Shown piece by piece: positions 372-64,000 of a stretch of DNA of 64,000 nucleotides. The translations under genes and the position numbers were made by a program. Numbering within the stretch: the stretch's first letter is position 1; every line of letters starts with the position of its first letter. Below the pieces are notes generated by a model that had not been told where the DNA came from, did not search any database, and saw only the letters and a list, made by a program, of their open reading frames with translations. Origin of the DNA: the human T2T-CHM13v2.0 reference genome, Homo sapiens; NCBI RefSeq assembly GCF_009914755.1, contig NC_060933.1. One strand, given 5' to 3'.

Positions 372-1845
372 ATAGAACAGATCTTGAATTTTTAAACATC
401 TTTGTCATTAGATAGTTATGCTGTATCTTACATTTATATTTTCAGGCTTTTTGAAATAAAAATACTAATTTATGATTAGCAAATTTTATTGTTTTATTCT
501 CTTATATTTAAGAAATTCCTTTCAGAGACATATGTTTAACATTGTCATTGAAAATCAATCAGCCTTTAAGAATTTCCAGGTTAGACAATAAGAAGTTTAA
601 TGTATTTGTTGATATAACAATAGTCTTAAATAAAAATATCTGCTTCTTAGCATCTAGTTCATGACAGTATACTTCTTGGGTTACAATCAAAATGTCTTGC
701 TTGATGATGATAAATTATTTCTACATATGTAATTTTGTTATTATTAGGACTTATCAGATAATGAAGCTTAGAGAAAAATTAGCCACACCACTTGCAAAAG
801 ACACAGCTGTAATATATTTAATTTTTTTTAATTTAGGGTTTAACTGAAAAAAGTAGTTGCTATGTAGTAATACAATATATTGCATTAATATATGTTGACT
901 CATTATATTTATTTCAATTTCTTTCTATTTTTCATAATGTATCTGTTTTATATTCTGATTCAAATACATATGCAGGCCAAATACTAGATTCAAAAAAAAA
1001 ATTAGAATAAAATTGATGATAATCACAGAGTTCTCATTGGCAGAAAACTGCTACTATTTGTAGGTTATTCTAAAAACTATATTATAACTACATAGAAGAA
1101 GAAACTATAGTAAAAATAACACTTTATGTGACAGACCCATAACCTGTTCACAAGATAGAACAGGCAGCCGTACAGTGTACCGGGGTATAATAGGAAAAAA
1201 TATTACTATAGCTGCATTAATTTAAAATGGAATTTGGTTGTTATAAATTGGAAAGAAAAAATAAAGTATGAAATAGATATCTTTCTTTTGCTCCACTCAA
1301 ATAGAAATTACAGGGCAATTTCAGATAAGAGGATTTCCTGTTTTATTCAACTTGAGGTCATTCTATATAGTTTGTATTTCTTTTTTTCTTTTTTTCCCCT
1401 TCCGTATTTACTCAGACAAGGTCAACAGTCTATCTGGAGCTTTCTGCAATCACCCATTTATTTTAAAGAACCAGACTTCCCTAGTGTTAAAATCCTTCCT
1501 ATGCCATTTGTGAGATATTATCTGGCCTTTCTTTTTGTTGCCTGTTGTGTCTATGCATCCAAATAACAGACAGTCTATTTCCTCTAACTCTTCCATGAGT
1601 CAGCAGGCTGTGATAGGCCAATTGATATAGTATTATTTTTGACTTTCAAAATATATGCTTAATCTTTTCATTATTAACTGGATGACTCAAGTATGAAAAG
1701 TATTTTTTGACCTAGACTCAAATAATTTACTGTATTATGTGGGTAATGCAAAATAGAATCTTTGGCCATTGCTAGTATTTTTCACTCCTAAGTAGTGAAA
1801 CATTGCAGATAATATATTCTTACTGGAATTTAGCATCTAGACATA

Positions 1846-2029
1846 GTTTAATAAGAGAGTAAGAACTATAAAACTGATTTGTGAATGAGGGGAAAGGTGA
1901 AGGAATTAAAATTTTGTATAGAATAGAACACTTTACTTTTTTTATGAAACATGAAAAATGGAAATCTAATTGAAGTTTCCTCAAGTGATAAAACATTCCA
2001 GACATAAGTATGTTATTCAAAAGATAGCA
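1846..2029 (+). repeat. 184-bp local duplication, copy 1 (probable donor)
   Basis: Matches 3014-3197 without gaps; 5 substitutions by eye. Confidence 0.95.
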
Positions 2030-2940
2030 CCATGTGGCCTTTTGGCATTACCTACCAGTCTTGAATAAGGTATTTTTTTAAAAAACGAAGTATCTTCACA
2101 GCAATTTTGTCCCAGCCTCTCTCTTGATTCTAATTATTTTGAGGTCAGCAATTGCAACTTATTCTCCTTTGTGTCCTTTACGTGTTTAGCGCTATGCTAT
2201 TGCTGAGGATAAGATGATGTATTCTGAGGTATTCTGTAGAACGCCCATGCTAGTTTCAATGACATGCAGCTCTTAGAGTTGTTTTCTCTTCAAAAACATG
2301 CATCTCCTCTGGGTCTGTTCAGGAGTCATGAAACCAAGAACTATATCAGATGTATAGTAGGAACTACAGTGTACTACTTTAGTAGCAAACACTGACTATT
2401 TGCTTATGGCATAATTTTAGAGTAGCCAAAGGAGAACATGTTCAAGAGCAACATGTATATTCAAAGATACAATTTCTGGATAAATATGTACTTAAACCAA
2501 AGAATGTAGAGATTTATTAATGACCAGTTTATTCTTATTCTTAGTCAATTATCTCAGCTACAGAGCGGCTTTTCAATCACGGAGCTCTGATCGTGTCATT
2601 TTTCTATTTAAAGCCTTTGATGACAAAAGATTTCCTTCAAGGTAAAGTCTAAATTCACAGTAAGTGTTGGTGCATTTCAATGTTCTGCCCTCAACAGTCT
2701 TTTCCACTACTCTTTATTTTTTCATAATGAAAAGTAGTAAAATTATATCTACTTCCATGACTTCGGTTAACACCCACTTATACCACCTACATACACTTCA
2801 ATTTTGAGAAACTAACTCCATAAATCTGACAACTGCCAATGTAATCAGCTACATTTAATCTCTCAAGTCTATTCCTAACCTCATCATCTATCCCACAAAT
2901 TCTGCTATTTTTAATTAAATTTTATTCCATCATCACTTTA

Positions 2941-3420
2941 GTATTATCAAGGTAAGGTTATAGTAGAAAACAATAATAACAAAAAAAATCTCAAAACAAA
3001 CAAAAATTCAGTGGTTTAATAAGAGAGTAAGAACTATAAAACTGATTTGTGAATGAGGGGAAAGGTGAAGGAATTAAAATTTTGTATAGAGTAGAGCACT
3101 TTACTTTTTTTATGAAACATAAAAAATGAAAATCTAATTGAAGTTTCCTTAAGTGATAAAACATTCCAGACATAAGTATGTTATTCAAAAGATAGCATGG
3201 CTTGGGTGCTATGGCTGGGGATTTTGCTTTGTATAGTTTGTATTCAAGTACCCAGACTGTGGGAGCAGCCACTATTACATTATTAGGCATTGTGTGGCAA
3301 AGGGAAAGAGAGAGTGTGGACAATCAACTCTGGTTTCTAAAGCTTCCACTTGGAAGTTGACATGTCAATTCCTGAACGTCATTAGCTAAAGTAAGTCATG
3401 TGGCCACACCTTCCCACAAA
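2941..3420 (-). mobile_element. MLT1 (J/K-like) LTR, interrupted by duplication copy 2
   Basis: GTATTATCAAGGTAAGGTTAT...TCAGTGGTTTAA then ACCCAGACTGTGGGAGCAGCCACT...GGCAAAGGGAAAGAGAG...AGTCATGTGGCCACACC resemble reverse-strand MLT1. Confidence 0.65.
3014..3197 (+). repeat. 184-bp local duplication, copy 2 (probable insertion)
   Basis: Direct copy of 1846-2029, offset 1168 bp. Confidence 0.95.
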
Positions 3421-3479
3421 TGACAGCCTCCATGTTCTTGAAGGAGGACCATAGATACTATAACATAATAGCGGTAAAG

Positions 3480-4302
3480 AATGTTACATGTACCATCTAG
3501 CCTAAACTATAAACAAGATAATCTCTGCTCTTCTTCACCAGCTTTTATCTTTCATAGCCTATCACCAAATCTTACAAATGCTGGTTCTAAATGTCTTTCA
3601 TATCTGTTTTCTCATCTCCAACCCAACTGCTACTACCATAGTTTCAGATCTCATCTTTTCCCTACACTATTGCTTCACTTTATTACTCTCTGCCTACCAA
3701 TTTCCCATACTGCAACCCGTTCTCCATACGGTAACCAGAGAATATCCTAAAATGTGAATTTGATTTTATTCATCCTATTCTTAAAATTCTCAATACTATG
3801 GTTTCAATTTATAGTTTATAGTTCAATTTATAGTTTAAGATTCAAGCTTTCTAGCTTGAAACACAAAGGTGCTTCATGATGAGATCCCAGTCTACTTTTC
3901 TGTTCTCATCTCACACCTCTCTCCTCTGACACTTTTTTATGCTCCAGGCGTAATGCACTACTTGTCATTCTCCCCAAGCAAAACATTCTTTCTTATATTG
4001 CCAAAAGCTGCATATACTCTTTTATTTCTAAAATGTTCTTACTTTCAAACCTCTATTTATCTTTCAAGATTAATTTCAAGCATAAACCCCTTAACATGAC
4101 TTCTTTGGATCTTCCTTTCAAATGGCAGGATTAATGTTCTGAACCTCTGTTTTCACATGCTGGAGTACTTAACACACAGTTCTATTAATCCATTTCTAAC
4201 ATTGTAGCCAATTATGTATGTGTTTGTGCGTTTTTTCAGGGCCAAGACTATACCTTATACTTAGTCTATGGCGTGAAATTGGTACTCAATAAATATTTAT
4301 GA
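3480..4302 (+). mobile_element. L2 3' region (a further fragment at about 2590-2940)
   Basis: Pyrimidine-rich L2-like body ending GGTACTCAATAAATATTTATGA, the L2 3' terminus. Confidence 0.6.
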
Positions 4303-5260: not shown

Positions 5261-5589
5261 TCCTAGCTTTCCATAAGAACAAGTGCATCAGAATCATCAT
5301 TAACAATTACAATTTATACACTCTCTATTACTGGCATGCTACCTGCTTTCTTCACTAGAGTAACTTAAAATCAAAAGAAGAAGTCTTAATTAAATACTTC
5401 TATAATTAACTGTATTAATTATTATTTCATGACTTTTTAACATTTTCTTTGAGAGAAAACACTGCTTTGTTATAAATTTGCCAGTGATTTTTGGGAAGGA
5501 ATGTTCTATACATTGGTTGCATAGATAGGTCATTGATTATGTGAACAAACTCAAAAAGATGACATGCCCAAATACTTGTGTCTCTGAAA

Positions 5590-5815
5590 TTCGGCTAACT
5601 GCAACCTCTGCCTCCCAGGTTCAAGCTATTTTCCTGCCTCAGCCTCCTGAGTAGCTGGGATTACAGGCGCACACCACTACTGCCTGGCTAATTTTTGTAT
5701 TTTTAGTAGACACCGGGTTTCACCATGTTGGCCAGGCTGGTCTCGAACTCCTGACTTCAAATGATCCACCCACCTTGGCCTCCTAAAGTGCTGGGATTAC
5801 ATGCATGAGCCACCA
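5590..5815 (-). mobile_element. Partial AluS sequence with no tail and no TSD; inverted copy of the Alu at 6158
   Basis: Lacks the first ~10 and last ~50 nt of Alu; shares private variants with the 6158 Alu. Confidence 0.9.
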
Positions 5816-8142: not shown

Positions 8143-9472
8143 TGAGAGGTGACAACGTGCTAGCAGCCCTCGCTTGCTCTTGGCGCCTCCTCGGCCTCGG
8201 CCTCTGCTCTGGCTGCGCTCCAGGAGCCCTTCAGCCCGCCCTACGCTATGAGGGCCCCTCTCTGGGGCTGGCCAAGGCCAGAGCCCGCTCCCTCTGCTCT
8301 TGGGGAAGTGTGAAGAGAGAGGCGCAGGCACGGCACTCGCGGGCTGGCACCGGTTCCAGGTGAGCGCCAGCTCGGCAAGCCCTGCAACTGGCGCGGCTGG
8401 CCAGCGCCTGCTGGGCTTGATCGGAGGCTGAATCCCGTGAGTGGACTGCCCTTCCCTCTTCGCGGGATCGTTGGCCACCATAGCAGGTCTGCATCTCTTT
8501 CTCGCTTCCCCTCTTTTCCTCTTGATTGTCTGGGACAAGCTCCCTCTGGGCTGCTGGAGTGCCTCGGCAAGACCCCTGCCCAGTGCTAGTGAGAGGTGAA
8601 GCTGGCTGGGCTTCTGGGTGGGGTCAGGACTTGGAGAACTTTTCTGTCTAGCTAAAAGATTGTAAATGCACCAATCAGCACTCTGTGTCTAGCTAAAGGT
8701 TTGTAAACACACCAATCAACACTCTGTAAAAATGCACCAATCAGCACTCTCTGTCTAGCTAAAGGTTTGTAAATGCACTAATCAGAGCTCTGTGTCTAGC
8801 TAATTGGGTAGGGACTTGGAGAACTTTTCTGTCTAGCCAAAGGTTTATATATGCACCAATCAGCACTCTGTGTCTAGCTCATTGGGTGTGGACTTGGAGA
8901 ACTTTTGTGCCATTCTAAACGTTTGTAAACGCACCAATCAGCACTCTGTCAAAACGGACCAATCAGCTCTCCGTAAAATGGACCAATCGGCTCTTTGTAA
9001 AATGGACCAATCAGCAGAATGTGGGTGGAGCCAGATAAGGGAATACAAGCAGGACACCCAACCCAGCAGCAATAACGTGCTCAGGTCTCCTTCCACTGTG
9101 TGGAAACTTTGTTCTTTCCCTCTTCATGCATGAAATCTTGCTGTTCCTCACTCTTTGGGTCTGTGCCACCTTTAAGATTTGTAACACTCACCATGAAGGT
9201 CTGCAGCTTCACTCCTGAAGCCAGCAAAAGACCACGAACTCAGCGGGGGGAACAAACAACTCTGGATGCGCTGCCTTTAAGAGCTGTTAACACTGACTGC
9301 GAAGGTCTGCGAGACCACGAACCTACCAGAAGGAAAAAACTCCGGACACCTCGGAACATCAGAAGGAACGAACTCCGGACACACCATCTTTAAGAACTGT
9401 AAAATCACCGCGAGGGTCTGCGGCTTCATTCTTGAAGTCAGCGAGACCAAAAACCCACCAATTCTGGACACA
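8143..9472 (+). mobile_element. ERV9 solo LTR (LTR12 family) with tandem CCAAT-box enhancer repeats
   Basis: TGAGAGGTGACAACGTGCTAGCAGCCCTCG start, repeated CACCAATCAGCACTCTGTGTCTAGCT units, end CCACCAATTCTGGACACA; 4-bp TSD GGTT/GCTT. Confidence 0.95.
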
Positions 9473-57354: not shown

Positions 57355-59990
57355 GGGCTTTGGTAGAAACTGAATGTTTGACTATGAGTCATCAAGTAAC
57401 CATGTGACCCTGAACTGCCTATCATGAACTGGGTGTTTTCTGACCCATCTAGCCATGAAGTGGGGCATACACAGCAGCATTCCATCATCAAATGGAAGTG
57501 GTATATACCTGATCAGGATTGAGCAGTTCCTGAGAGCACAAGTAAGTTACATGAAGAAGTGGTTCAAATGCCCATGGTCCCCACTCCTGCTGTCCTGCCT
57601 TCTCTCCCCCAGACTGCACTGATGGCCTTATGGGGAGCTTTCTATGATAAGTTGACAGAGGAAGAGAAGACTAGGCCCTGGTTTATAGACAGCGTTGCAC
57701 AATATGCAGGCACCACCCAAAAGTGGACAGCTGCCACTCTATAGTCCCTTTCTAGGACATCCCTGAAGGACAGTGGCAAAGGGAAATCTTTCCAGTCAGC
57801 AGAGTTTTGATCAGTGCATCTGATAGTGCACTTTGCTTAGAAGGAGAAATGGGCAGATGTTGTGATTATATACTGATTCATGGGCTGTTGTCAATGGTTT
57901 GGCTGGATGGTCAAGGACTTGGAAGAAGCATGACTGGAAAATTGGTGACAAAGAAATTTGAGGAAGAGGTATGTGGATGGAACTCTCTGAGTGGTCGAAA
58001 ACTGTGAAGATATTTGTATCCCATGTGAGTGCCCACCAAAAGGTGTCCTCTGCAGAGGAGGATTTTAATAATCAAGTGGGTAGGATGGCTTGTTCTGTGA
58101 ACACTACTCAGCCTCATTCCCCAGGCACCCCTGTCATTGCCCAATGGGCACATGAACAAAGTTGCCATGGTGGCAGGGATGGGCTCAGCAACATGGACTT
58201 TCACTCACCAAGGCTGCCCTGGCTATGGTGCCCAATTTGCCAGCAGCAGAGACCAACATTGAGCCCTTAATATAGCACCATTCCTCAGGGTGATCAGCCA
58301 GCAACATGGTGTCAGGTTGATTATATTGGAATTCTTCCATTATGGATAGGACAGCAGTTTGTCCTAACTGGAATAGACAGTCTGGATATGGGTTGCCTAT
58401 CCTGCACACAATGTTTCTGCCAAGAGTACCATCCCTGGACTCACGGAATGCCTTATCTACCATCATGGTATTCCACATAGCATTGCCTCTGACCAAGGCA
58501 CTCACTTTATGGCTGAAAAAGTGCGGCAGGGCCAGGCGCGGTGGCTCACGCCTGGAATCCCAGCACTTTGGGAGGCCAAGGCGGGCGGATCACAAGGTCA
58601 GTAGATGGAGACCATCCTGGCTAACACAGTGAAACCCCGTCTCTACTAAAAATACAAAAAATTAGCTGGGTGGGGTGGCGGGCACCTGTAGTCCCAGCTA
58701 CTTGGGAGGCTGAGGTGGGAGAATGGTGTGAAACCGGGAGGCAGAGCTTATAGAGAGCAGAGATAGTGCCACTGCAGTCCAGCCTGGGCGACAGAGCGAG
58801 ATTCCATCTCAAAAAAAAAAAAAAAAAAAAGTGCGGCAGTGGGATCATTATCATGAAATTCACTGGTTTTACCATGTTCCCCATCGTCCTGAAGTAGCTG
58901 GATTGATAGAATGATGAAATGGCCTTTCAAAGTCACAATTATAAGGCAAACTAGTTGAAAATACTTTGCAGGGCTAGGGCAAAGTTCAGCAGAAGGCTGT
59001 GTATGCTCTAAATGAGGATCCAATATATGGTACTGTTTCTCTCAAAGCCAGGATTCATGAGTCCAGGAATCAAGGGGTAGAAGTGGAAACGGAACTACTC
59101 ACCATCACCTCTAGTGACCCACTAGCAAAATTTTTGCTTCCTGTTCCCATGACATTACATTCTGCTGGCCTAGAGGTCTTAGTTCCAGAAGGAGGAATGC
59201 TGCCACCAGGAGACACAACAATGATTCCATTAAACAAAGTAGATAGCAACCTGGCCACTTCGGGCTCCTCCTACCTTTAAGTCAACAGGCTAACAAGGAA
59301 GTTACAGTGTTGGCTGGGGGGATTGACCCAGACAATCAAGATGAAATCGGTTTACTACTCCACAATGGAGGTAAGGAAGAGTATGCATGGAATACAGGAG
59401 ATCCCTTATGGCATCTCTTGGTATTATCATGCCCTGTGATTAAAGTCAATGGGAAACCACAGCAACCCAATTCAGGCAGGACTACAGATGGTCCAGACCC
59501 TTCAGGAATGAAGATTTGGGTTACTCCATCAGGTAAAAAACCATGACCTGCTGAGGTGCTTGCTGAAGGCAAAGGGAATACAGAATGGGTAGTAGAAGAA
59601 GCTAGTCATGAGTGCTAACTACTACCATGTGACTGGTTGTAGAAACGAGAACGGTAATTGTCCTGAATATTTCCTCCTTAATTTTTTTAAGAACATGTTT
59701 GTGTATGTATACACTTGTACTAAAAAAAAAAAAAAACATTATTTTATTTTCTTTCTTTTTCCTCTATCACGTGACATAAGGTTTATTGACTTTATGCTGG
59801 CATTTAAGTGTTGTTAACTTTATGTAATAGCATTTGGTTTGAGGATTGGTGTGCTTCTGCTTGTACGAAGGATAGCTGTATTATGTTAGGTGTAATTATG
59901 ACCTTATTATTGTCTTTATTTGAAGATTATGTATGATTTCAGGAGATGTGTATGGGTTCAAATTGACAAGGAGTGGACTTGTGATGATTT
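57355..59990 (+). mobile_element. HERV-L internal 3' half (RNase H, integrase, dUTPase relics) with PPT and ~10 bp of MLT2 LTR
   Basis: Peptides KIFVSHVSAHQK, AQWAHEQSCHGG...CPICQQQRP (integrase HHCC), GGIDPDNQDEIGLLLHN (dUTPase); GACAAGGAGTGGAC|TGTGATG. Confidence 0.9.
58530..58830 (+). mobile_element. AluY nested in HERV-L integrase
   Basis: ACCATCCTGGCTAACAC, GAGAATGGTGTGAA; TSD AAAAAGTGCGGCAG. Confidence 0.94.
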
Positions 59991-60677
59991 TTGGCTTTCA
60001 GGTCTTGTGATTTAAGAAATAAATTTTGTAGGGCTATAGCAGTCATAGATAGTGATTTATCTGATGGATCTGGGCAAAGTTCATTGAAAACTTTCTGGAA
60101 AGGATTATTCATTCTAGATGTCATTTAAGAACATTGGCAATTCATGGGAGGAGGTCTAAATATTAACATTAGTAGGAGTTTGGAGCAAGTTGATTTCAGC
60201 TCTCATAGATGACTGTCAGGGGTTCCAGACTTCAATGGAGAAAGCCACTGCAGATGTTTTGGAATAGCAAGAGAACTAGAATTAGAATTGGAATAGCAAA
60301 AGAACTAGAATTAGAAGATGTGACTGACTTACATCAATCTTATGATAAAGACTTGAATGGAAGAGAAGTTGCTTTTTATGAATGATCAAAAACAATAGTT
60401 TCTGGAGACAAAACCTACTCCTGATGAAGATGCTGTGAACATTGTTGAAATGACGGCAAAGGATTTAGAGCATTGCATAAACTTAGTAGGTAAAACAGTA
60501 GCAAGGTTTGAGACGATTTATGCCAATTTTGAAAGATATTCTACTGTGGGTATAATGTTATCAAAGAGTATCACATCATACCGATAATTATTTCTGAAGG
60601 AAAGAGTATATCAATGTGGCAATCTTCATTGCTTTCTTATTTAAGCTACCTCCACAGTCAACCCAATCATCAGCAAC
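59991..60677 (+). mobile_element. Tigger1 DNA transposon internal fragment (3' part of transposase)
   Basis: GATGGATCTGGGCAAAGT...AAAACTTTCTGGAAAGGATT...ACTCCTGATGAAGATGCTGTGAACATTGTTGAAATGAC...GATATTCTACTGTGGG. Confidence 0.88.
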
Positions 60678-63348
60678 CAGGGCCGAGATGAGTCACCCCT
60701 CTCTCCCCTCCTGGCTATTATGATCCACATCGCAGGGGTGTGAGGCACCCCCTCCGATATGAGGACTAATAGCACACTCCTCTCCCTGCCGGCTATTACG
60801 ATCCACATTGCAGGGGCCTGAGGCACCCCCTGCAATAGGGGGAGTAATAGCACCCCCTCTCCCCCCCGGCTATTATGATCCATGGTGGATTCACAGTCTG
60901 TTTACTATATTGTGAGTAACATCATCTCCCCCTCTGGAAATTGTGAACTATTTCACAGACGGGTGTACACCCATCTGTATTGGGAGTAATAACATCCTCT
61001 TCCTCTCTGAATATTAAGAACAGTATCACAGGAGTGTTTCTACTCCCTGCGATATTGGGTGTCATATCCTCCTCTCCCACGTTGAAATTAGAAACAATAT
61101 CACTGAGGGCGTGTACACCTTCTGTGATATTTAAAGCAATATCATCCTCTTCCCTCCAGGATCATGGGAACAATATCCCTGGAGGGTGTACACTTTCTGC
61201 GATGTATGTAGTAATATCATCCCCTCCGCCTTCGAGTATTATTAAGGACCATCTCACACGGCAGTGTACAACCCCTGCGATATTGGGAATACTATTATCC
61301 TCTTTCCCCCCTGCATATTTGGGAAAATAGCAGAGTGAGTGTACACCTCCTGCGATATGGGAATTAATATCCTCTTCTCCCTTTCTGGATATTAGAAACA
61401 ATGTCACACGGGGGTTTACACTTTCTTCGATATCTGGAGTAATGTCATCCTCTCCAGTTTTGAATGGCAAGAACAATATCTCAGGGGGGATGTACACCCC
61501 CTGCCATCTTGGGAGTAATATTTTGCTCTACCCCGCTTAATATTAGGACAAAATCCCAGCGTGGGGGTACACCTGTACTATATGGAAAGTAATACCGTCC
61601 TCTCCCTTCCTGGATTTTAGGGACAATATTACAGGGTGGGTGTACACAGCCGGCAATATTGAAAGTAATATCATCCTCTCCTCCCCCGGATATTAGGAAC
61701 AATATCACAGAAGGGTTGTACACTCTCTGCGATATTGGGAGTAATATCATTTTCGCCTCCTCTGAATACTAGGAGCAATATCCCCGGGCAGATGTACACC
61801 CACTGTTATATTGGGAGTCAGGTCATACTCTATCCCCTGGATATTAAGAGCAATATCACAAAGTGGGTGTACACCCACGGAGATACTGAGAGCAATATCA
61901 TGCTCTCCCACCCTGGATATTAGGAACAATATCACAGGTGGGTGTACATCCCCTGCAGGGCAAAGAATAATATTATCTTCCCTTCCTTTAGCTATTGAGA
62001 ACAATATCACATGCAGGGGGGCTACACCCCCTGCACTATTGTGAGTAATATCGTTCTCTCTTATTCTGGATAGTAGGAAAAATATCACAGGCAGAGTGTA
62101 CAACCTCTGTGATATTGAGAGTAATATCATCCTCTCCCAACGTGGATTTTAGGAACCATATCACAAGAGGCGTGTACACTTCTTCGATATTGGTAGCAAT
62201 ATCATGCTCTCCTCCCTGGATATAAGAAACAATATGACGGGTGGGTGGACACCCCCGCGATATGGGGAGTAATATCCCTACCTGGATATTAGGATCCACG
62301 GTGGACACACAGCGTGATTACGATTTTGTGAGTAATATCATCTCCCCCTGTAGAAATTTCGAACAATATCAAAGACGGGTGTACACCCTCTGCAATATAG
62401 GGAGGAATATGATCCTCTCACCCCACGCCCTTGATATTAGGAACAATATCAAAGGAGCATTTATAAACCCTGCGATGATGGGAGTAATATCATCCTCTCC
62501 CACGTTGAAATTAGGAACAGTATCACTGGGAGCGTGTAGACCCCATGCGATATTGAAAGTAATATCATCCCCTTCCCTACTGGATCATGGGAACAATATC
62601 ACTAGGGGGTGTACAGTTTCTGCTATATTGGGAGTAAAATCGTCTTCTCCGGCTTGGAATATTAAGAACAATTTGACGGGGGTGGAGGGGGGTACAATTT
62701 CTGCAATATTGGAAAAAATATTACCCTCTCTCCCACTGCATATTAGGAAAGCTATCACAGAGTGGGTGTTCACCTCCTGCAATATAGGGAGTGATATCAT
62801 CTTCTCCCCTTCTGAATAGCAGGAACAGTATCACATGGGGGTGTACACTTCCGGCGATATTGGGAGTAATATCAACCTCTCGGCCTCTGAATATTAGGAA
62901 CAATATCACAGGGTGGGTGTACACCTCCTGCTCTATTATGGGGAGAAATATATATCTATTATGGGGAGTAATATCATCCTCTCCCTTTCAGGATATTAAT
63001 AAGAATATCACACGGTGGGTGAACACAGCCTGCGATACTGGAATTATTATCATCCTCTCCCCCTCGGCATACTAGGAACAATATCACAGAAGAGGTGTAC
63101 ACTCCCTGCGATATTGGGAGTAATATCATACGCTTCTTCCGTGAATATTAGGAGCAATATCACCGGGTGGCTGTACATTCATTGCTATGTTGGGAGTCAT
63201 GTCATACTCTACCCCCTGGATATTAGGATCAGTGTCACAGGGTGAGTGGACACCTACTGCGATATTAAAACTAGTAACATGCTCTCCATCCCTGGATATT
63301 GGGAACAATATCACAGGTAGGTTTACACCACCTGCGATATTAGGAGTA
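60678..63348 (+). repeat. SATR1/SATR2-type satellite, left arm; ~75-76-bp diverged monomers
   Basis: Monomer about GGATATTAGGAACAATATCACAGGGGGTGTACACCCCTGCGATATTGGGAGTAATATCATCCTCTCCCCCCT; registers at 61689, 61840, 61916. Confidence 0.88.
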
Positions 63349-63643
63349 ATAATATTATTAATTATTAAACATCACTCTTAATAATAATTATCAATGGTAA
63401 TATTAATTAATAGTATAACGTTATTAATCATTAATTATTATTTTAAATATATGATTATGCATGATTAAAATTAATTATTGCTTTAACGTCATTTTTCAAT
63501 ATTAGTTATTAATCTTAATCTTAATTATTGTTTAATAACCAACATCACTTATGACTGATTTAATTAACGTTAATTACTGACATGATTATTTTATTATTAA
63601 TAGTGATATTGCTATTAATTATTAATTATTAATAATTAATATA
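63349..63643. other. Extremely AT-rich spacer between oppositely oriented satellite arms
   Basis: Dense TAATTA/ATTAAT motifs; perfect 16-bp palindrome TAATTAACGTTAATTA at 63561-63576. Confidence 0.9.
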
Positions 63644-64000
63644 ACTGTTCCCGATCTCCGTGGGGGAGAGGATGTTACTCCCAATATCGCAGAAAGTGTG
63701 CACCCCTCTATGAAGTTACTCCTCATAGCCAGGGCATAGAGGGTGACATTATCGAAAATATCGCCATGAGTTTACATCCGTTCGGTCATCTTCTTCCTAA
63801 TATCCTGGGTGGGAGCGGATGATATGAATCCCAATATCGCAGGGGGCGTAGACTTCCCCCTTGATACTGTCCCTAACATCCAAAGGTGGAGAGGATGATA
63901 TTTCTTCCAATTTCGCAGGGGGTGTACACCACCCCTGTGATATTGATCCTAATATCCAGGGGGCGAGAGGATGATCTTAGTCTCACTATTGCGGGAGGTG
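63644..64000 (-). repeat. SATR-type satellite, right arm in inverted orientation (runs off the window)
   Basis: GGAGAGGATG...ACTCCCAATATCGCAG...GATATTGATCCTAATATCCAGG is the reverse complement of the left-arm monomer. Confidence 0.88.

What the first reader, a model, noticed from the sequence alone, without database searches (positions are those of the whole stretch)
60678..64000. Satellite with foldback/origin-like architecture: inverted arms of palindromic monomers around an AT-rich core, starting inside Tigger1
Seen: ~35 monomers of ~75 bp point rightward, then comes a ~295-bp almost pure A/T core, then the same monomers continue in the opposite orientation. The array starts abruptly after ...CAGCAACC within Tigger1 sequence, so it arrived after, or was joined to, Tigger1. 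Known: the monomer fits the SATR1/SATR2 family, normally treated as plain satellite. Foldback transposons (Drosophila FB, sea-urchin TU) have inverted arms built of tandem subrepeats, and HSV oriS has inverted binding sites flanking an AT-rich unwinding centre. Inference: this may be a discrete, dispersed module (arm-core-arm) that moves or is copied as a unit, or acts as an origin or protein-loading platform, rather than a passive satellite.
Basis: partly seen in the sequence, partly recalled or inferred. Interest (0 to 1): 0.8.

Follow-up and report, generated by a model that had tools for sequence, protein, structure and literature searches.

The report
Solitary SATR satellite unit inside Tigger1
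This is one isolated 5-kb copy of a known primate satellite unit (two opposed SATR1 arrays around an AT-rich spacer, capped by SATR2-like blocks) that was pasted into an old transposon; it is a real, dispersed module but shows no sign of being a transposon or an origin.

Summary
About 35 monomers of ~75 bp run rightward, followed by a 294-bp spacer of 8-20% GC, then the same monomers inverted. Extending the sequence shows a discrete ~5.07-kb insert (window ~60696 to 65762). Its layout is GC-richer block(+), SATR1 arm(+), AT core, SATR1 arm(-), GC-richer block(+). The Tigger1-like repeat resumes right after it, with 16 bp of target missing and no target-site duplication.

The same oriented module, in register, occurs at about 39 other places in this genome. 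Eleven of the 20 loci I fetched share flanks, so they spread as Xiao/DA-type segmental duplications. The others have unrelated flanks.

The outer ends are direct, not inverted. The arms are only 70-75% complementary, whereas the same arm is 93-95% identical between loci. The core evolves no more slowly than the arms and shows no covariation. No protein domain was found.

The architecture is already in print for macaque (SATR core unit, 2025 preprint), and SATR1/SATR2 are known markers of duplicative-transposition breakpoints.

Verdict: a solitary copy of a known composite satellite unit, pasted in passively. Foldback-transposon and origin readings are not supported but not fully excluded.

The parts
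60330..60695 (+). Left flank: an old, high-copy interspersed repeat. The same repeat copy resumes outside the window at position 65771 and runs to about 66043.
   Evidence: 2430 first-look candidates, of which 40 were scored. The 39 other places match at 76-80% identity; the flank aligns to a consensus of 7 paralogs up to consensus position 138 (window 60695). The right flank resumes at consensus position 155 (window 65771), leaving 16 consensus bases absent and 8 orphan bases (65763-65770); both flanks map colinearly to the same paralogs.
60696..60880 (+). Left GC-richer monomer block (SATR2-like; the name is inferred), about 2.4 monomers of ~78 bp. Its counterpart in the same + orientation closes the element outside the window at 65473-65762.
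   Evidence: period 78, 82% matches. (GC 0.54-0.58); homologous to the G blocks that bound the module at other loci. SATR homology ends at 65762.
60881..63351 (+). SATR1 arm in + orientation, about 32 monomers of ~75-76 bp. It contains an old internal duplication: 60824-61956 matches 62250-63335 at 74.6%.
   Evidence: SATR1 primer matches. The core-proximal ~600-860 bp are colinear with other loci at 88-92%.
63352..63645 (+). AT-rich core (GC 8-20%). It is a unique, non-tandem sequence and an imperfect palindrome. It lacks the extra ~80-120 bp that other copies carry at the border with the right arm.
   Evidence: self-reverse-complement score 168 against 99 +/- 18 for shuffles. DNA fold z = -3.28; 39 other places at 74-90% identity, 21 of them with a second hit to the core's last ~50 bp; alignment of 27 cores.
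63646..64000 (-). SATR1 arm in - orientation. Only its first 355 bp lie inside the window. Read from locus L011, it continues to window position 65472, about 24 monomers in all.
   Evidence: The first ~770 bp are colinear with other loci at 87-92%.

Best explanation
The feature is one solitary copy, about 5.07 kb, of the higher-order unit of the primate SATR1/SATR2 satellite family. The unit is: SATR2-like block, SATR1 array, AT-rich imperfect-palindrome spacer, SATR1 array in the opposite orientation, SATR2-like block.

The inversion and its spacer arose once, long before dispersal (shown). I infer the cause was a fold-back or inverted-duplication event in an ancestral SATR1 array whose monomers carry short palindromes. 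The unit then existed as tandem higher-order arrays. Pieces of one to three units, usually broken inside the SATR2-like blocks, were copied to new sites. My rough estimate for this is 20-35 Myr ago.

The copy here was pasted into a Tigger1-like repeat by a non-transposase route. Candidates are capture of a duplicated or extrachromosomal fragment at a double-strand break, or replication template switching. It left a small target deletion and no target-site duplication.

I infer that it does nothing specific today. It is most likely methylated heterochromatin-type satellite DNA that can attract satellite-binding zinc-finger proteins.

Shown: the anatomy, the insertion, single origin of the junction, dispersal, lack of conserved termini, and lack of arm homogenisation. 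Inferred: the fold-back origin, the insertion mechanism, the dating and the present inactivity.
For: - **Insert bounded by one repeat.** Both flanks map colinearly and in the same orientation to the same paralogs (4 of 4 tested). The breakpoints are at paralog-consensus positions 138 and 155.
- **Single origin of the junction.** 22 other places match the whole 801-bp arm-core-arm query. 39 other places match the core (44 candidates, 40 scored). In 29 aligned copies the left arm, core and right arm are mostly 88-95%, 81-93% and 88-93% identical to this one; in 4 of the 29 the right-arm section reads only 54-88%, over partial or poorly aligned stretches.
- **Inversion older than dispersal.** The left arm is 93-95% identical to left arms elsewhere, but only 70-75% identical to the reverse complement of its own right arm, in this copy and the 5 others tested (6 of 6). 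No inverted register stands out: all are 69-73%.
- **Constant layout.** G+ A+ core A- G+ is seen at REF and at all 20 fetched loci. Tandem units occur at chr22:36.15M (3 cores), chr9:117.99M, chr12 and chr3.
- **No conserved ends**, and the proposed terminus is absent elsewhere.
- **No coding capacity.** The ORFs of 127-216 aa in the arms have no Pfam match (0 of 4). No Rfam family matched.
- **Solitary.** None of the Xiao/SES flank sequences occurs within the window plus 20 kb, apart from ~300-bp Alu-size hits.
- **Literature (passages read).** In macaque, the core unit is a GC-rich SATR1v array, inverted SATR1, an AT-rich uncharacterised repeat and forward SATR1, and it is 74-82% methylated (10.1101/2025.08.04.668424). 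SATR1/SATR2 define Xiao/DA core duplicons, and a 746-kb duplicative transposition breaks inside SATR2 (PMC5088589; PMC2700803).
Against: - The isolated copies form a near-polytomy with similar terminal branches of 0.03-0.07. That looks like a burst, as a mobile element would give.
- Both ends of this copy fall in the SATR2-like blocks, which make up only about 10% of a unit, and the two ends are in monomer phase. Random breakage does not predict this.
- Target-site duplications of 4-9 bp were reported for Xiao/DA elements whose flanks are SATR-HERVE-SATR (PMC2700803).
- I could not look at other primates, so the insertion is inferred only from paralogous Tigger1-like copies that are ~22% diverged. 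The breakpoints are therefore uncertain by several bases, and a very short duplication could be hidden.
- All 20 comparison loci were found with the junction itself as the query, so they carry the core by construction.
Confidence: 0.7

Rival explanations
1. The module is a non-autonomous mobile cassette: foldback-like, or the active end of the Xiao/DA duplicons. It moves as a unit at the DNA level, possibly through a circular unit-length intermediate formed by recombination between the SATR2-like blocks.
For: - It is a discrete insert in a Tigger1-like repeat.
- Flanks are unrelated at REF, chr14:45.95M, chr13:53.53M, chr22:36.15M, chr2:193.09M, chr9:117.99M, chr13:92.30M and chr2:82.53M.
- The tree of isolated copies is star-like.
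- Both ends lie in same-orientation SATR2-like blocks and in monomer phase.
- Duplications of 4-9 bp are published for SATR-flanked Xiao/DA (PMC2700803).
Against: - Ends differ at every locus, and 0 of about 300 kb carries the proposed terminus.
- The outer ends are direct, not inverted.
- No duplication is seen here; instead there is a 16-bp gap in the target.
- Copies hold from under 1 to 3 units.
- At two isolated loci the border is not an original end. At chr9:117.99M it was made by a later L1 that is 98-99% identical to its paralogs. At chr13:53.53M the left flank is an LTR-like repeat that does not resume on the right, so the border is uninformative.
- The ends of chr13:53.53M are about 40 bp out of monomer phase.
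- There is no ORF with a known domain.
Confidence: 0.12
2. The arm-core-arm unit is a functional or structure-forming DNA element. Candidates are a replication origin or protein-loading platform (arrays of short palindromic sites around an easily melted AT core), or a cruciform-prone fragile site of the PATRR type.
For: - The core is 80-92% A/T and is an imperfect palindrome: z about 3.8 in this copy and 4.4 in the 27-copy consensus. The DNA fold has z = -3.28.
- Each monomer carries three short palindromes.
- ZNF141 and ZBTB24 ChIP enrichment over SATR1 is reported (10.1101/2023.02.27.530095; 10.1101/2023.08.31.555516).
- SATR blocks sit at rearrangement breakpoints in 8p23.1 (PMC5088589).
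Against: - The core is no better conserved than the arms: 81-93% against 88-95%.
- The consensus fold of 27 cores has -1.1 kcal/mol. Only 1 of 27 predicted pairs shows a change on both sides.
- This copy lacks the extra ~80-120 bp that other copies carry at the border of core and right arm.
- The arms are only ~70% complementary, so a long hairpin is unlikely.
- Macaque units are hypermethylated.
- No origin-mapping data were available to me.
Confidence: 0.08
3. The array grew in place from a small seed, or the Tigger1 pieces were joined to a pre-existing array by rearrangement, rather than a ready-made unit being inserted.
For: Satellites can expand locally. The left arm contains an old internal duplication at 74.6% identity.
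Against: - The whole ordered layout (G+, A+, core, A-, G+) and the in-register 1.6-kb centre match other loci at 88-92%. It therefore arrived already assembled.
- The two flanks are adjacent parts of one repeat copy in the same orientation.
Confidence: 0.03

Closest known systems
SATR1/SATR2 satellite family, and the 'SATR core unit' described in the T2T rhesus macaque genome (bioRxiv 10.1101/2025.08.04.668424)
   Same: The layout matches: a GC-richer block, a SATR1 array, an AT-rich uncharacterised spacer, and a SATR1 array in the opposite orientation. Units occur in tandem or singly at interstitial loci. Arm GC is ~0.40-0.50 here against 44% reported for macaque SATR1. Internal G blocks here are often ~360-370 bp, against ~377 bp reported for SATR2.
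   Different: Reported macaque arm lengths are 589 and 191 bp, and its GC-rich partner, SATR1v, is 81% GC. Here the arms are 2.5 and 1.8 kb, with a conserved centre of about 860 + 770 bp, and the bounding blocks are only 54-58% GC. Sequence homology to the macaque spacer (rnd6) could not be tested. This copy is solitary and sits inside a transposon.
SES (SATR-HERVE-SATR) flanks of the Xiao/DA core duplicons (PMC2700803; PMC5088589)
   Same: The module at chr2:71.05M, which the paper calls the chr2-71Mb Xiao, and 10 other fetched loci with shared flanks is homologous and colinear with this one. The estimated age is similar.
   Different: No HERV-E, OR7E or other Xiao flank sequence lies within the window plus 20 kb. 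Here the unit stands alone.
Foldback transposons (Drosophila FB, Galileo; sea-urchin TU)
   Same: Long opposed arms are built of tandem subrepeats around a middle segment, and copies are dispersed.
   Different: In foldback elements the inverted arms reach the element's ends, the termini are conserved, and fixed target-site duplications are made (recalled knowledge). Here the outermost blocks are direct repeats, the termini vary, no duplication is seen, and the arms are ~70% alike.
Palindromic AT-rich repeats (PATRRs) of human translocation breakpoints
   Same: An AT-rich palindromic centre of a few hundred bp flanked by less AT-rich DNA, in a family linked to rearrangement-prone duplicons.
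   Different: PATRRs are near-perfect palindromes (recalled knowledge). This core is weakly palindromic, and no breakpoint data point to it.
Viral and cellular origins with inverted binding sites around an AT-rich unwinding element (e.g. HSV oriS)
   Same: The geometry alone: opposed repeats of short palindromic sites around an AT-rich centre.
   Different: The scale is kilobases rather than tens of bp. No initiator is known, the centre is not specially conserved, and no activity data exist.

Membership tests
SATR1 satellite | Sequence match to the SATR1 consensus | tested here: met
   This is a proxy test. Two primers designed on the SATR1 consensus (supplement of PMC3606032) match 18 and 8 times with <=3 mismatches, against 0.00 and 0.01 expected. 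All matches lie in 61015-63962, and the strand flips across the core. No Dfam or RepeatMasker model was available.
SATR1 satellite | Tandem monomers of about 75 bp | tested here: met
   periods of 75-76 bp with 26.9 + 5.1 copies.
SATR2 satellite (the bounding GC-richer blocks) | Sequence match to the SATR2 consensus | not testable with these tools
   No SATR2 sequence or model was on hand. The name is inferred from block size (often ~360-370 bp at other loci, against ~377 bp in macaque) and from the published SATR1-SATR2 interspersion.
SATR composite core unit (macaque T2T description) | Order: GC-richer array, SATR1 in one orientation, AT-rich unique repeat, SATR1 in the other orientation | tested here: met
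   at REF and at all 20 fetched loci. The loci were chosen with the junction as query.
SATR composite core unit (macaque T2T description) | Homology of the AT-rich spacer to macaque 'rnd6' | not testable with these tools
   No macaque sequence was available.
Xiao/DA core duplicon (SES flank) | SATR-HERVE-SATR next to an OR7E-derived core, with flanks shared among copies | tested here: not met
   REF shares no flank with any of the 20 loci; flanks of 5 SES-type loci hit the window plus 20 kb only in ~300-bp Alu-size pieces.
Foldback transposon | Inverted arms that form the element's termini | tested here: not met
   The outermost ~185 and ~290 bp are the same monomer variant in the same (+) orientation.
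Foldback transposon | Conserved terminal sequence among copies | tested here: not met
   13 loci start and end at different monomer positions; 0 hits for the proposed terminus.
Foldback transposon | Target-site duplication | tested here: inconclusive
   16 bases of the paralog consensus are absent and no repeat is seen at the junctions. The paralogs are ~22% diverged and no orthologous empty site could be read.
PATRR | Near-perfect AT-rich palindrome of several hundred bp | tested here: not met
   The core is AT-rich but only weakly palindromic. The self-reverse-complement alignment has many gaps. The fold is -33.5 kcal/mol for 306 nt, z = -3.28.
Replication origin | Initiation activity or initiator binding | not testable with these tools
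   No SNS-seq, Ini-seq or ORC data were available. The sequence shows no constraint on the core.

The most novel reading that the evidence does not exclude
SATR2-bounded units of opposed SATR1 arrays may be a mobilisable DNA cassette of catarrhine primates. On this reading, recombination between the direct SATR2-like blocks releases unit-length (circular) copies that reintegrate at breaks. The same ends would have driven the burst of Xiao/DA duplicative transposition 25-14 Myr ago. This solitary copy in Tigger1, with both ends in SATR2-like blocks and in monomer phase, would be a 'solo' product of that process.
Probability: 0.1. Interest if true: 0.8.

Novelty: new member of a known kind. Interest (0 to 1): 0.3.

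Why it matters
If it is ordinary, as I think most likely, the value is descriptive in three ways:
- It gives a clean, datable example of a satellite higher-order unit copied into a unique site.
- It shows that the human SATR1 inversion plus AT-rich spacer is one ancient structure shared by about 40 copies.
- It shows that the SATR2-like blocks are the usual break sites, which fits their known role at 8p23.1 breakpoints.

If the bolder reading were true, it would name the mobile agent behind a class of interchromosomal core duplicons that shape disease-linked rearrangements at 8p23.1, 4p16 and 11q13. It would also make that mechanism testable with eccDNA and T2T primate data.

Tried and rejected
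- **Shared left terminus:** rejected.
- **Core as decayed SATR1 monomers:** 70-bp windows of the 27-copy core consensus score no better against monomer trimers than shuffles do. Not supported.
- **Conserved hairpin in the core:** RNAalifold on 27 cores gives no consensus structure and no covariation.
- **Coding capacity:** the arm ORFs (the 75-bp period equals 25 codons) have no Pfam hit.
- **RNA families:** none at gathering score.
- **Paralog-based empty-site tests at other solitary loci led nowhere.**
  - chr9:117.99M: the left border is a later L1 insertion, 98-99% identical to its paralogs.
  - chr13:53.53M: the left flank is an LTR-like repeat that does not resume on the right.
  - chr2:193.09M: the left flank has a single inverted paralog 52 kb away, and the right flank is a different old repeat.
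- **Naming the left flank through its protein:** 7 stop-free pieces gave no transposase domain, only a sub-threshold dUTPase hit.
- **Unit-length (circular) origin:** I aligned both G blocks to internal G blocks elsewhere. They are in phase only modulo one monomer, so this is weak.
- **Further loci with opposed arms but no detected core:** A coordinates-only search with a divergent core added only chr12:52.06M.
Full report
**1. What is there**

Reading the window and running Tandem Repeats Finder shows head-to-tail monomers of 75-78 bp from 60694 to 63351. They appear as 2.4 copies of a GC-richer 78-bp form, then 26.9 and 5.1 copies of a 75-76-bp form. The monomers appear again at 63811-63975.

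Between the two sets lies 63352-63645, where 50-bp windows have 8-20% GC. The arrays have 36-58% GC.

All 25 longest inverted pairs link the left array to sequence right of 63660, at 70-83% complementarity. The asymmetric CCTCTCCC/GGGAGAGG tract makes the flip in orientation plain to the eye.

The monomers carry short palindromes far above chance:
- GATATT-N6-AATATC gives 31 matches against 0.54 expected.
- GGTGTACACC gives 19 matches against 0.67 expected.

**2. The whole element**

I fetched the next 20 kb of the same chromosome. A monomer probe maps + at 60701-63351, - at 63646-65472 and + again at 65501-65731.

Reading L011 shows that the last ~290 bp (to window 65762) are the same GC-richer monomer variant as the first ~185 bp. 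Both are in the same orientation. The element is therefore:

[G+ 60696-60880] [SATR1 arm + to 63351] [AT core] [SATR1 arm - to 65472] [G+ to 65762]

That is about 5.07 kb. The left arm holds one old internal duplication (60824-61956 against 62250-63335, 74.6%). All other self-matches, direct or inverted, are 69-73%. No inverted register stands out.

**3. It is an insertion into one repeat copy**

The left flank is a high-copy old repeat: 2430 candidates, and the 39 other scored places match at 76-80%.

Left and right flanks map colinearly and in the same orientation to the same paralogs (4 of 4 tested, alignment). Against a consensus of 7 paralogs, the left flank aligns through position 138, which is window 60695. 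The right flank resumes at position 155, which is window 65771. Sixteen consensus bases are missing, and eight orphan bases lie between the end of SATR homology (65762) and the resumption.

No target-site duplication is visible. The paralogs are ~22% diverged, so the junctions are uncertain by a few bases.

Homology to other SATR loci starts at 60690-60696. The 20-mer at 60678-60697 has no match with up to 4 mismatches in 299,720 bases of fetched loci.

**4. The module is shared and dispersed**

A search of the window's own assembly with 63200-64000 found 22 other places that match the whole 801 bases. That search had 426 candidates, of which 40 were scored.

The core alone finds 39 other places at 74-90% identity (44 candidates, 40 scored). 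They lie on chromosomes 2, 3, 4, 5, 7, 9, 11, 12, 13, 14 and 22.

I fetched 20 loci of 10 kb each. These were chosen by that search, so they carry the core by construction. Every one shows the same oriented order: G+, A+ (~800-900 bp), core, A- (~740-870 bp), G+. Several are tandem repeats of this unit:
- chr22:36.15M with three cores
- chr9:117.99M, chr12:8.43M and chr3:75.66M with two cores each
- chr14:45.95M with two units head to head

The central ~1.6 kb is colinear between loci at 88-92%.

In 29 aligned copies, identity to this one is mostly 88-95% (left arm), 81-93% (core) and 88-93% (right arm). In 4 of the 29 the right-arm section reads only 54-88%, over partial or poorly aligned stretches.

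The left arm is 93-95% identical to left arms elsewhere. It is only 70-75% identical to the reverse complement of its own right arm, in this copy and the 5 others tested (6 of 6).

The inversion and its spacer therefore arose once, well before the copies spread. The arms have not been homogenised since.

**5. How the copies spread**

Flank comparison splits the loci.
- Eleven loci (L013, L017, L019, L021, L024-L027, L029, L031, L032) share long flanks with one another, so they spread as larger duplications.
- L015 and L016 share a right flank.
- REF, chr14:45.95M, chr13:53.53M, chr22:36.15M, chr2:193.09M, chr9:117.99M, chr13:92.30M and chr2:82.53M share nothing beyond Alu-size pieces. For three of these, only one flank lay within the fetched stretch.

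The shared-flank group includes chr2:71.05M, the 'chr2-71Mb Xiao' of Li et al. 2009. In that paper Xiao and DA duplicons are flanked by 'SES' (SATR-HERVE-SATR) elements, emerged 25-18 Myr ago, and were reported to carry 4-9-bp target-site duplications (PMC2700803; abstract and passages).

The 8p23.1 study places a 746-kb duplicative transposition breakpoint inside SATR2 and calls SATR1-SATR2 diagnostic of these core duplicons (PMC5088589; passages).

None of the SES-type flanks occurs in the window or the next 20 kb, apart from ~300-bp Alu-size hits. This copy is solitary.

In a maximum-likelihood tree, the isolated copies, this one included, form a near-polytomy. Terminal branches are 0.03-0.07, and this copy's is 0.036. 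From that branch length I infer an age of very roughly 20-35 Myr. This is an inference with a recalled substitution rate, not a measurement.

**6. Ends**

Printed side by side, 13 loci start and end at different positions of the monomer. Some start in an arm or in a core fragment.

At two isolated loci the border is not an original end:
- At chr9:117.99M it was made by a later L1 that is 98-99% identical to its paralogs.
- At chr13:53.53M the left flank is an LTR-like repeat that does not resume on the right, so the border is uninformative.

At chr2:193.09M the left flank has one inverted paralog 52 kb away at 91%, and the right flank is a different old repeat.

Two things remain unexplained by random breakage:
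- Both ends of this copy, and of several others, lie in the G blocks, which make up about a tenth of a unit.
- Here the right end (...AATAGCA) and the left start (CCCCTCTC...) are contiguous in monomer phase.

Aligned to internal G blocks elsewhere, the two ends are in phase only modulo one monomer. The chr13:53.53M copy is about 40 bp out of phase. I therefore treat this as a weak lead towards unit-length excision.

**7. The core**

The core is unique sequence. Outside this family it gives only a partial 76% match on chr5, which lies beside SATR arms.

It is an imperfect palindrome:
- Self-reverse-complement score of 168 against 99 +/- 18 for shuffles.
- 190 against 110 +/- 18 for the consensus of 27 copies.
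- DNA fold of -33.5 kcal/mol, z = -3.28.

Evidence that it is not under special constraint:
- It is no better conserved than the arms.
- The consensus fold of 27 copies is -1.1 kcal/mol, and only 1 of 27 predicted pairs changes on both sides.
- This copy lacks an extra ~80-120 bp at the border of core and right arm. The other full-length matches span 880-922 bases against the 801-base query. 21 of the 39 other core places show a second hit to the core's last ~50 bp.

Windows of the core score no better against SATR1 monomers than shuffles do. I cannot say where the core came from.

**8. Identity and what is in print**

Two primers designed on the SATR1 consensus (supplementary table of PMC3606032) match 18 and 8 times in the window, against 0.00 and 0.01 expected. 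All matches lie inside the arms, and the strand flips across the core. The arms are therefore SATR1.

I call the G blocks SATR2-like by inference only. Their internal size at other loci is often ~360-370 bp, against ~377 bp for macaque SATR2. Their GC of 54-58% does not fit SATR1v at 81%.

The T2T macaque preprint describes a core unit made of a GC-rich SATR1v array, a 589-bp inverted SATR1 array, an AT-rich uncharacterised repeat, a 191-bp forward SATR1 array and a further uncharacterised repeat (rnd155). It also describes SATR1-SATR2 mixed interstitial arrays, flanking inverted duplications, and 74-82% methylation (10.1101/2025.08.04.668424; passages).

Other passages I read report:
- a SATR1 variant annotated in CHM13 (10.1101/2021.07.12.451456)
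- ZNF141 binding to SATR1 (10.1101/2023.02.27.530095)
- ZBTB24 occupancy (10.1101/2023.08.31.555516) and hypomethylation in ICF2 cells (10.1101/2024.04.19.590250)
- SATR1 expansion at hoolock gibbon centromeres (PMC3606032)
- SATR2 copies in 13q21 duplications (PMC1794570)

My full-text searches for 'SATR1' (28 papers) and 'SATR2' (19 papers) turned up no paper that describes the human arm-core-arm unit as such or this chr9 copy. I read passages from 11 of these papers and saw only the listing for the rest. Ji and Zhao 2008, the original Xiao/DA paper, was not found in the library and may describe the SATR layout.

**9. No genes**

ORFs of 127-216 aa in the arms follow from the 75-bp period, which equals 25 codons. 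They have no Pfam match (0 of 4). No Rfam family reaches its gathering score.

**10. Verdict**

This is a real, well-defined structure and a discrete insertion.

The best-supported account is a passive one. An ancient inverted duplication in a SATR1 array became part of a higher-order unit. Unit-sized pieces were then copied around the genome during the catarrhine burst of duplicative transposition. This one landed in a Tigger1-like repeat by a break-repair type event.

The foldback-transposon reading fails three defining features: terminal inverted arms, conserved termini, and a target-site duplication (this last test was inconclusive). The origin or cruciform reading has only geometry in its favour.

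A mobile-cassette reading, perhaps through unit-length circles and linked to Xiao/DA, is not excluded. It is the most interesting thing left to test.

**11. Limits**

- No other primate genome and no repeat library could be consulted.
- The comparison loci were selected with the junction as query.
- An arm-only search found further loci where + and - arm matches lie ~350-440 bp apart but no core was detected: chr13:61.16M, chr11:43.32M, chr2:167.15M and chr18:27.08M. At chr15:37.94M the gap is ~710 bp. A weak core was detected at chr12:52.06M.

Noticed in passing
window 59247-59543 (+): A stop-free 99-aa frame gives a weak dUTPase match (PF00692, E 0.0018, 18.5 bits, below the 22-bit cut-off). 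It may be a fragment of a dUTPase-carrying endogenous retrovirus just upstream of the Tigger1-like piece.
   Followed up: no
window 60259-60316: A 29-bp unit is duplicated in tandem (2.0 copies, 96% matches) inside the Tigger1-like left flank.
   Followed up: no
L014 (chr14:45,944,000-45,953,999), cores at 5512-5800 (-) and 8785-9074 (+): Two complete modules lie head to head about 3 kb apart, forming a larger palindrome. A third core lies 30 kb away at chr14:45.98M.
   Followed up: partly
L022 (chr2:193,083,500-193,093,499), 2845-3701: This locus begins with a reversed copy of the left arm plus the first ~34 bp of the core (90.6% to window 62764-63385, minus strand). It therefore carries a second inversion. 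Its left flank has a single inverted paralog 52 kb away at 91%, like the inverted flanking duplications described around macaque SATR arrays.
   Followed up: partly
L013 (chr2:71,048,700-71,058,699), 1234-3406: A related satellite with a 63-bp period (126-bp dimer) lies left of the module. It forms the shared left flank of five Xiao-type loci.
   Followed up: no
L023 (chr9:117,988,000-117,997,999), 856-1212: A young L1 fragment, 98-99% identical to 39 paralogs, abuts and truncates the SATR array. It is a later insertion into the satellite.
   Followed up: yes
window 62262-62819 (+), 61747-62130 (-); L001 2401-3051 (-), 3094-3651 (-): Open frames of 127-216 aa run through the arms because the 75-bp period is 25 codons. 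None has a Pfam match.
   Followed up: yes
chr13:61.16M, chr11:43.32M, chr2:167.15M, chr18:27.08M, chr15:37.94M, chr12:52.06M, chr5:147.76M (assembly coordinates): Further SATR1 loci have + and - arm matches ~350-440 bp apart (~710 bp at chr15). No core like this one was detected, apart from weak hits at chr12 and chr5. They could not be fetched.
   Followed up: partly
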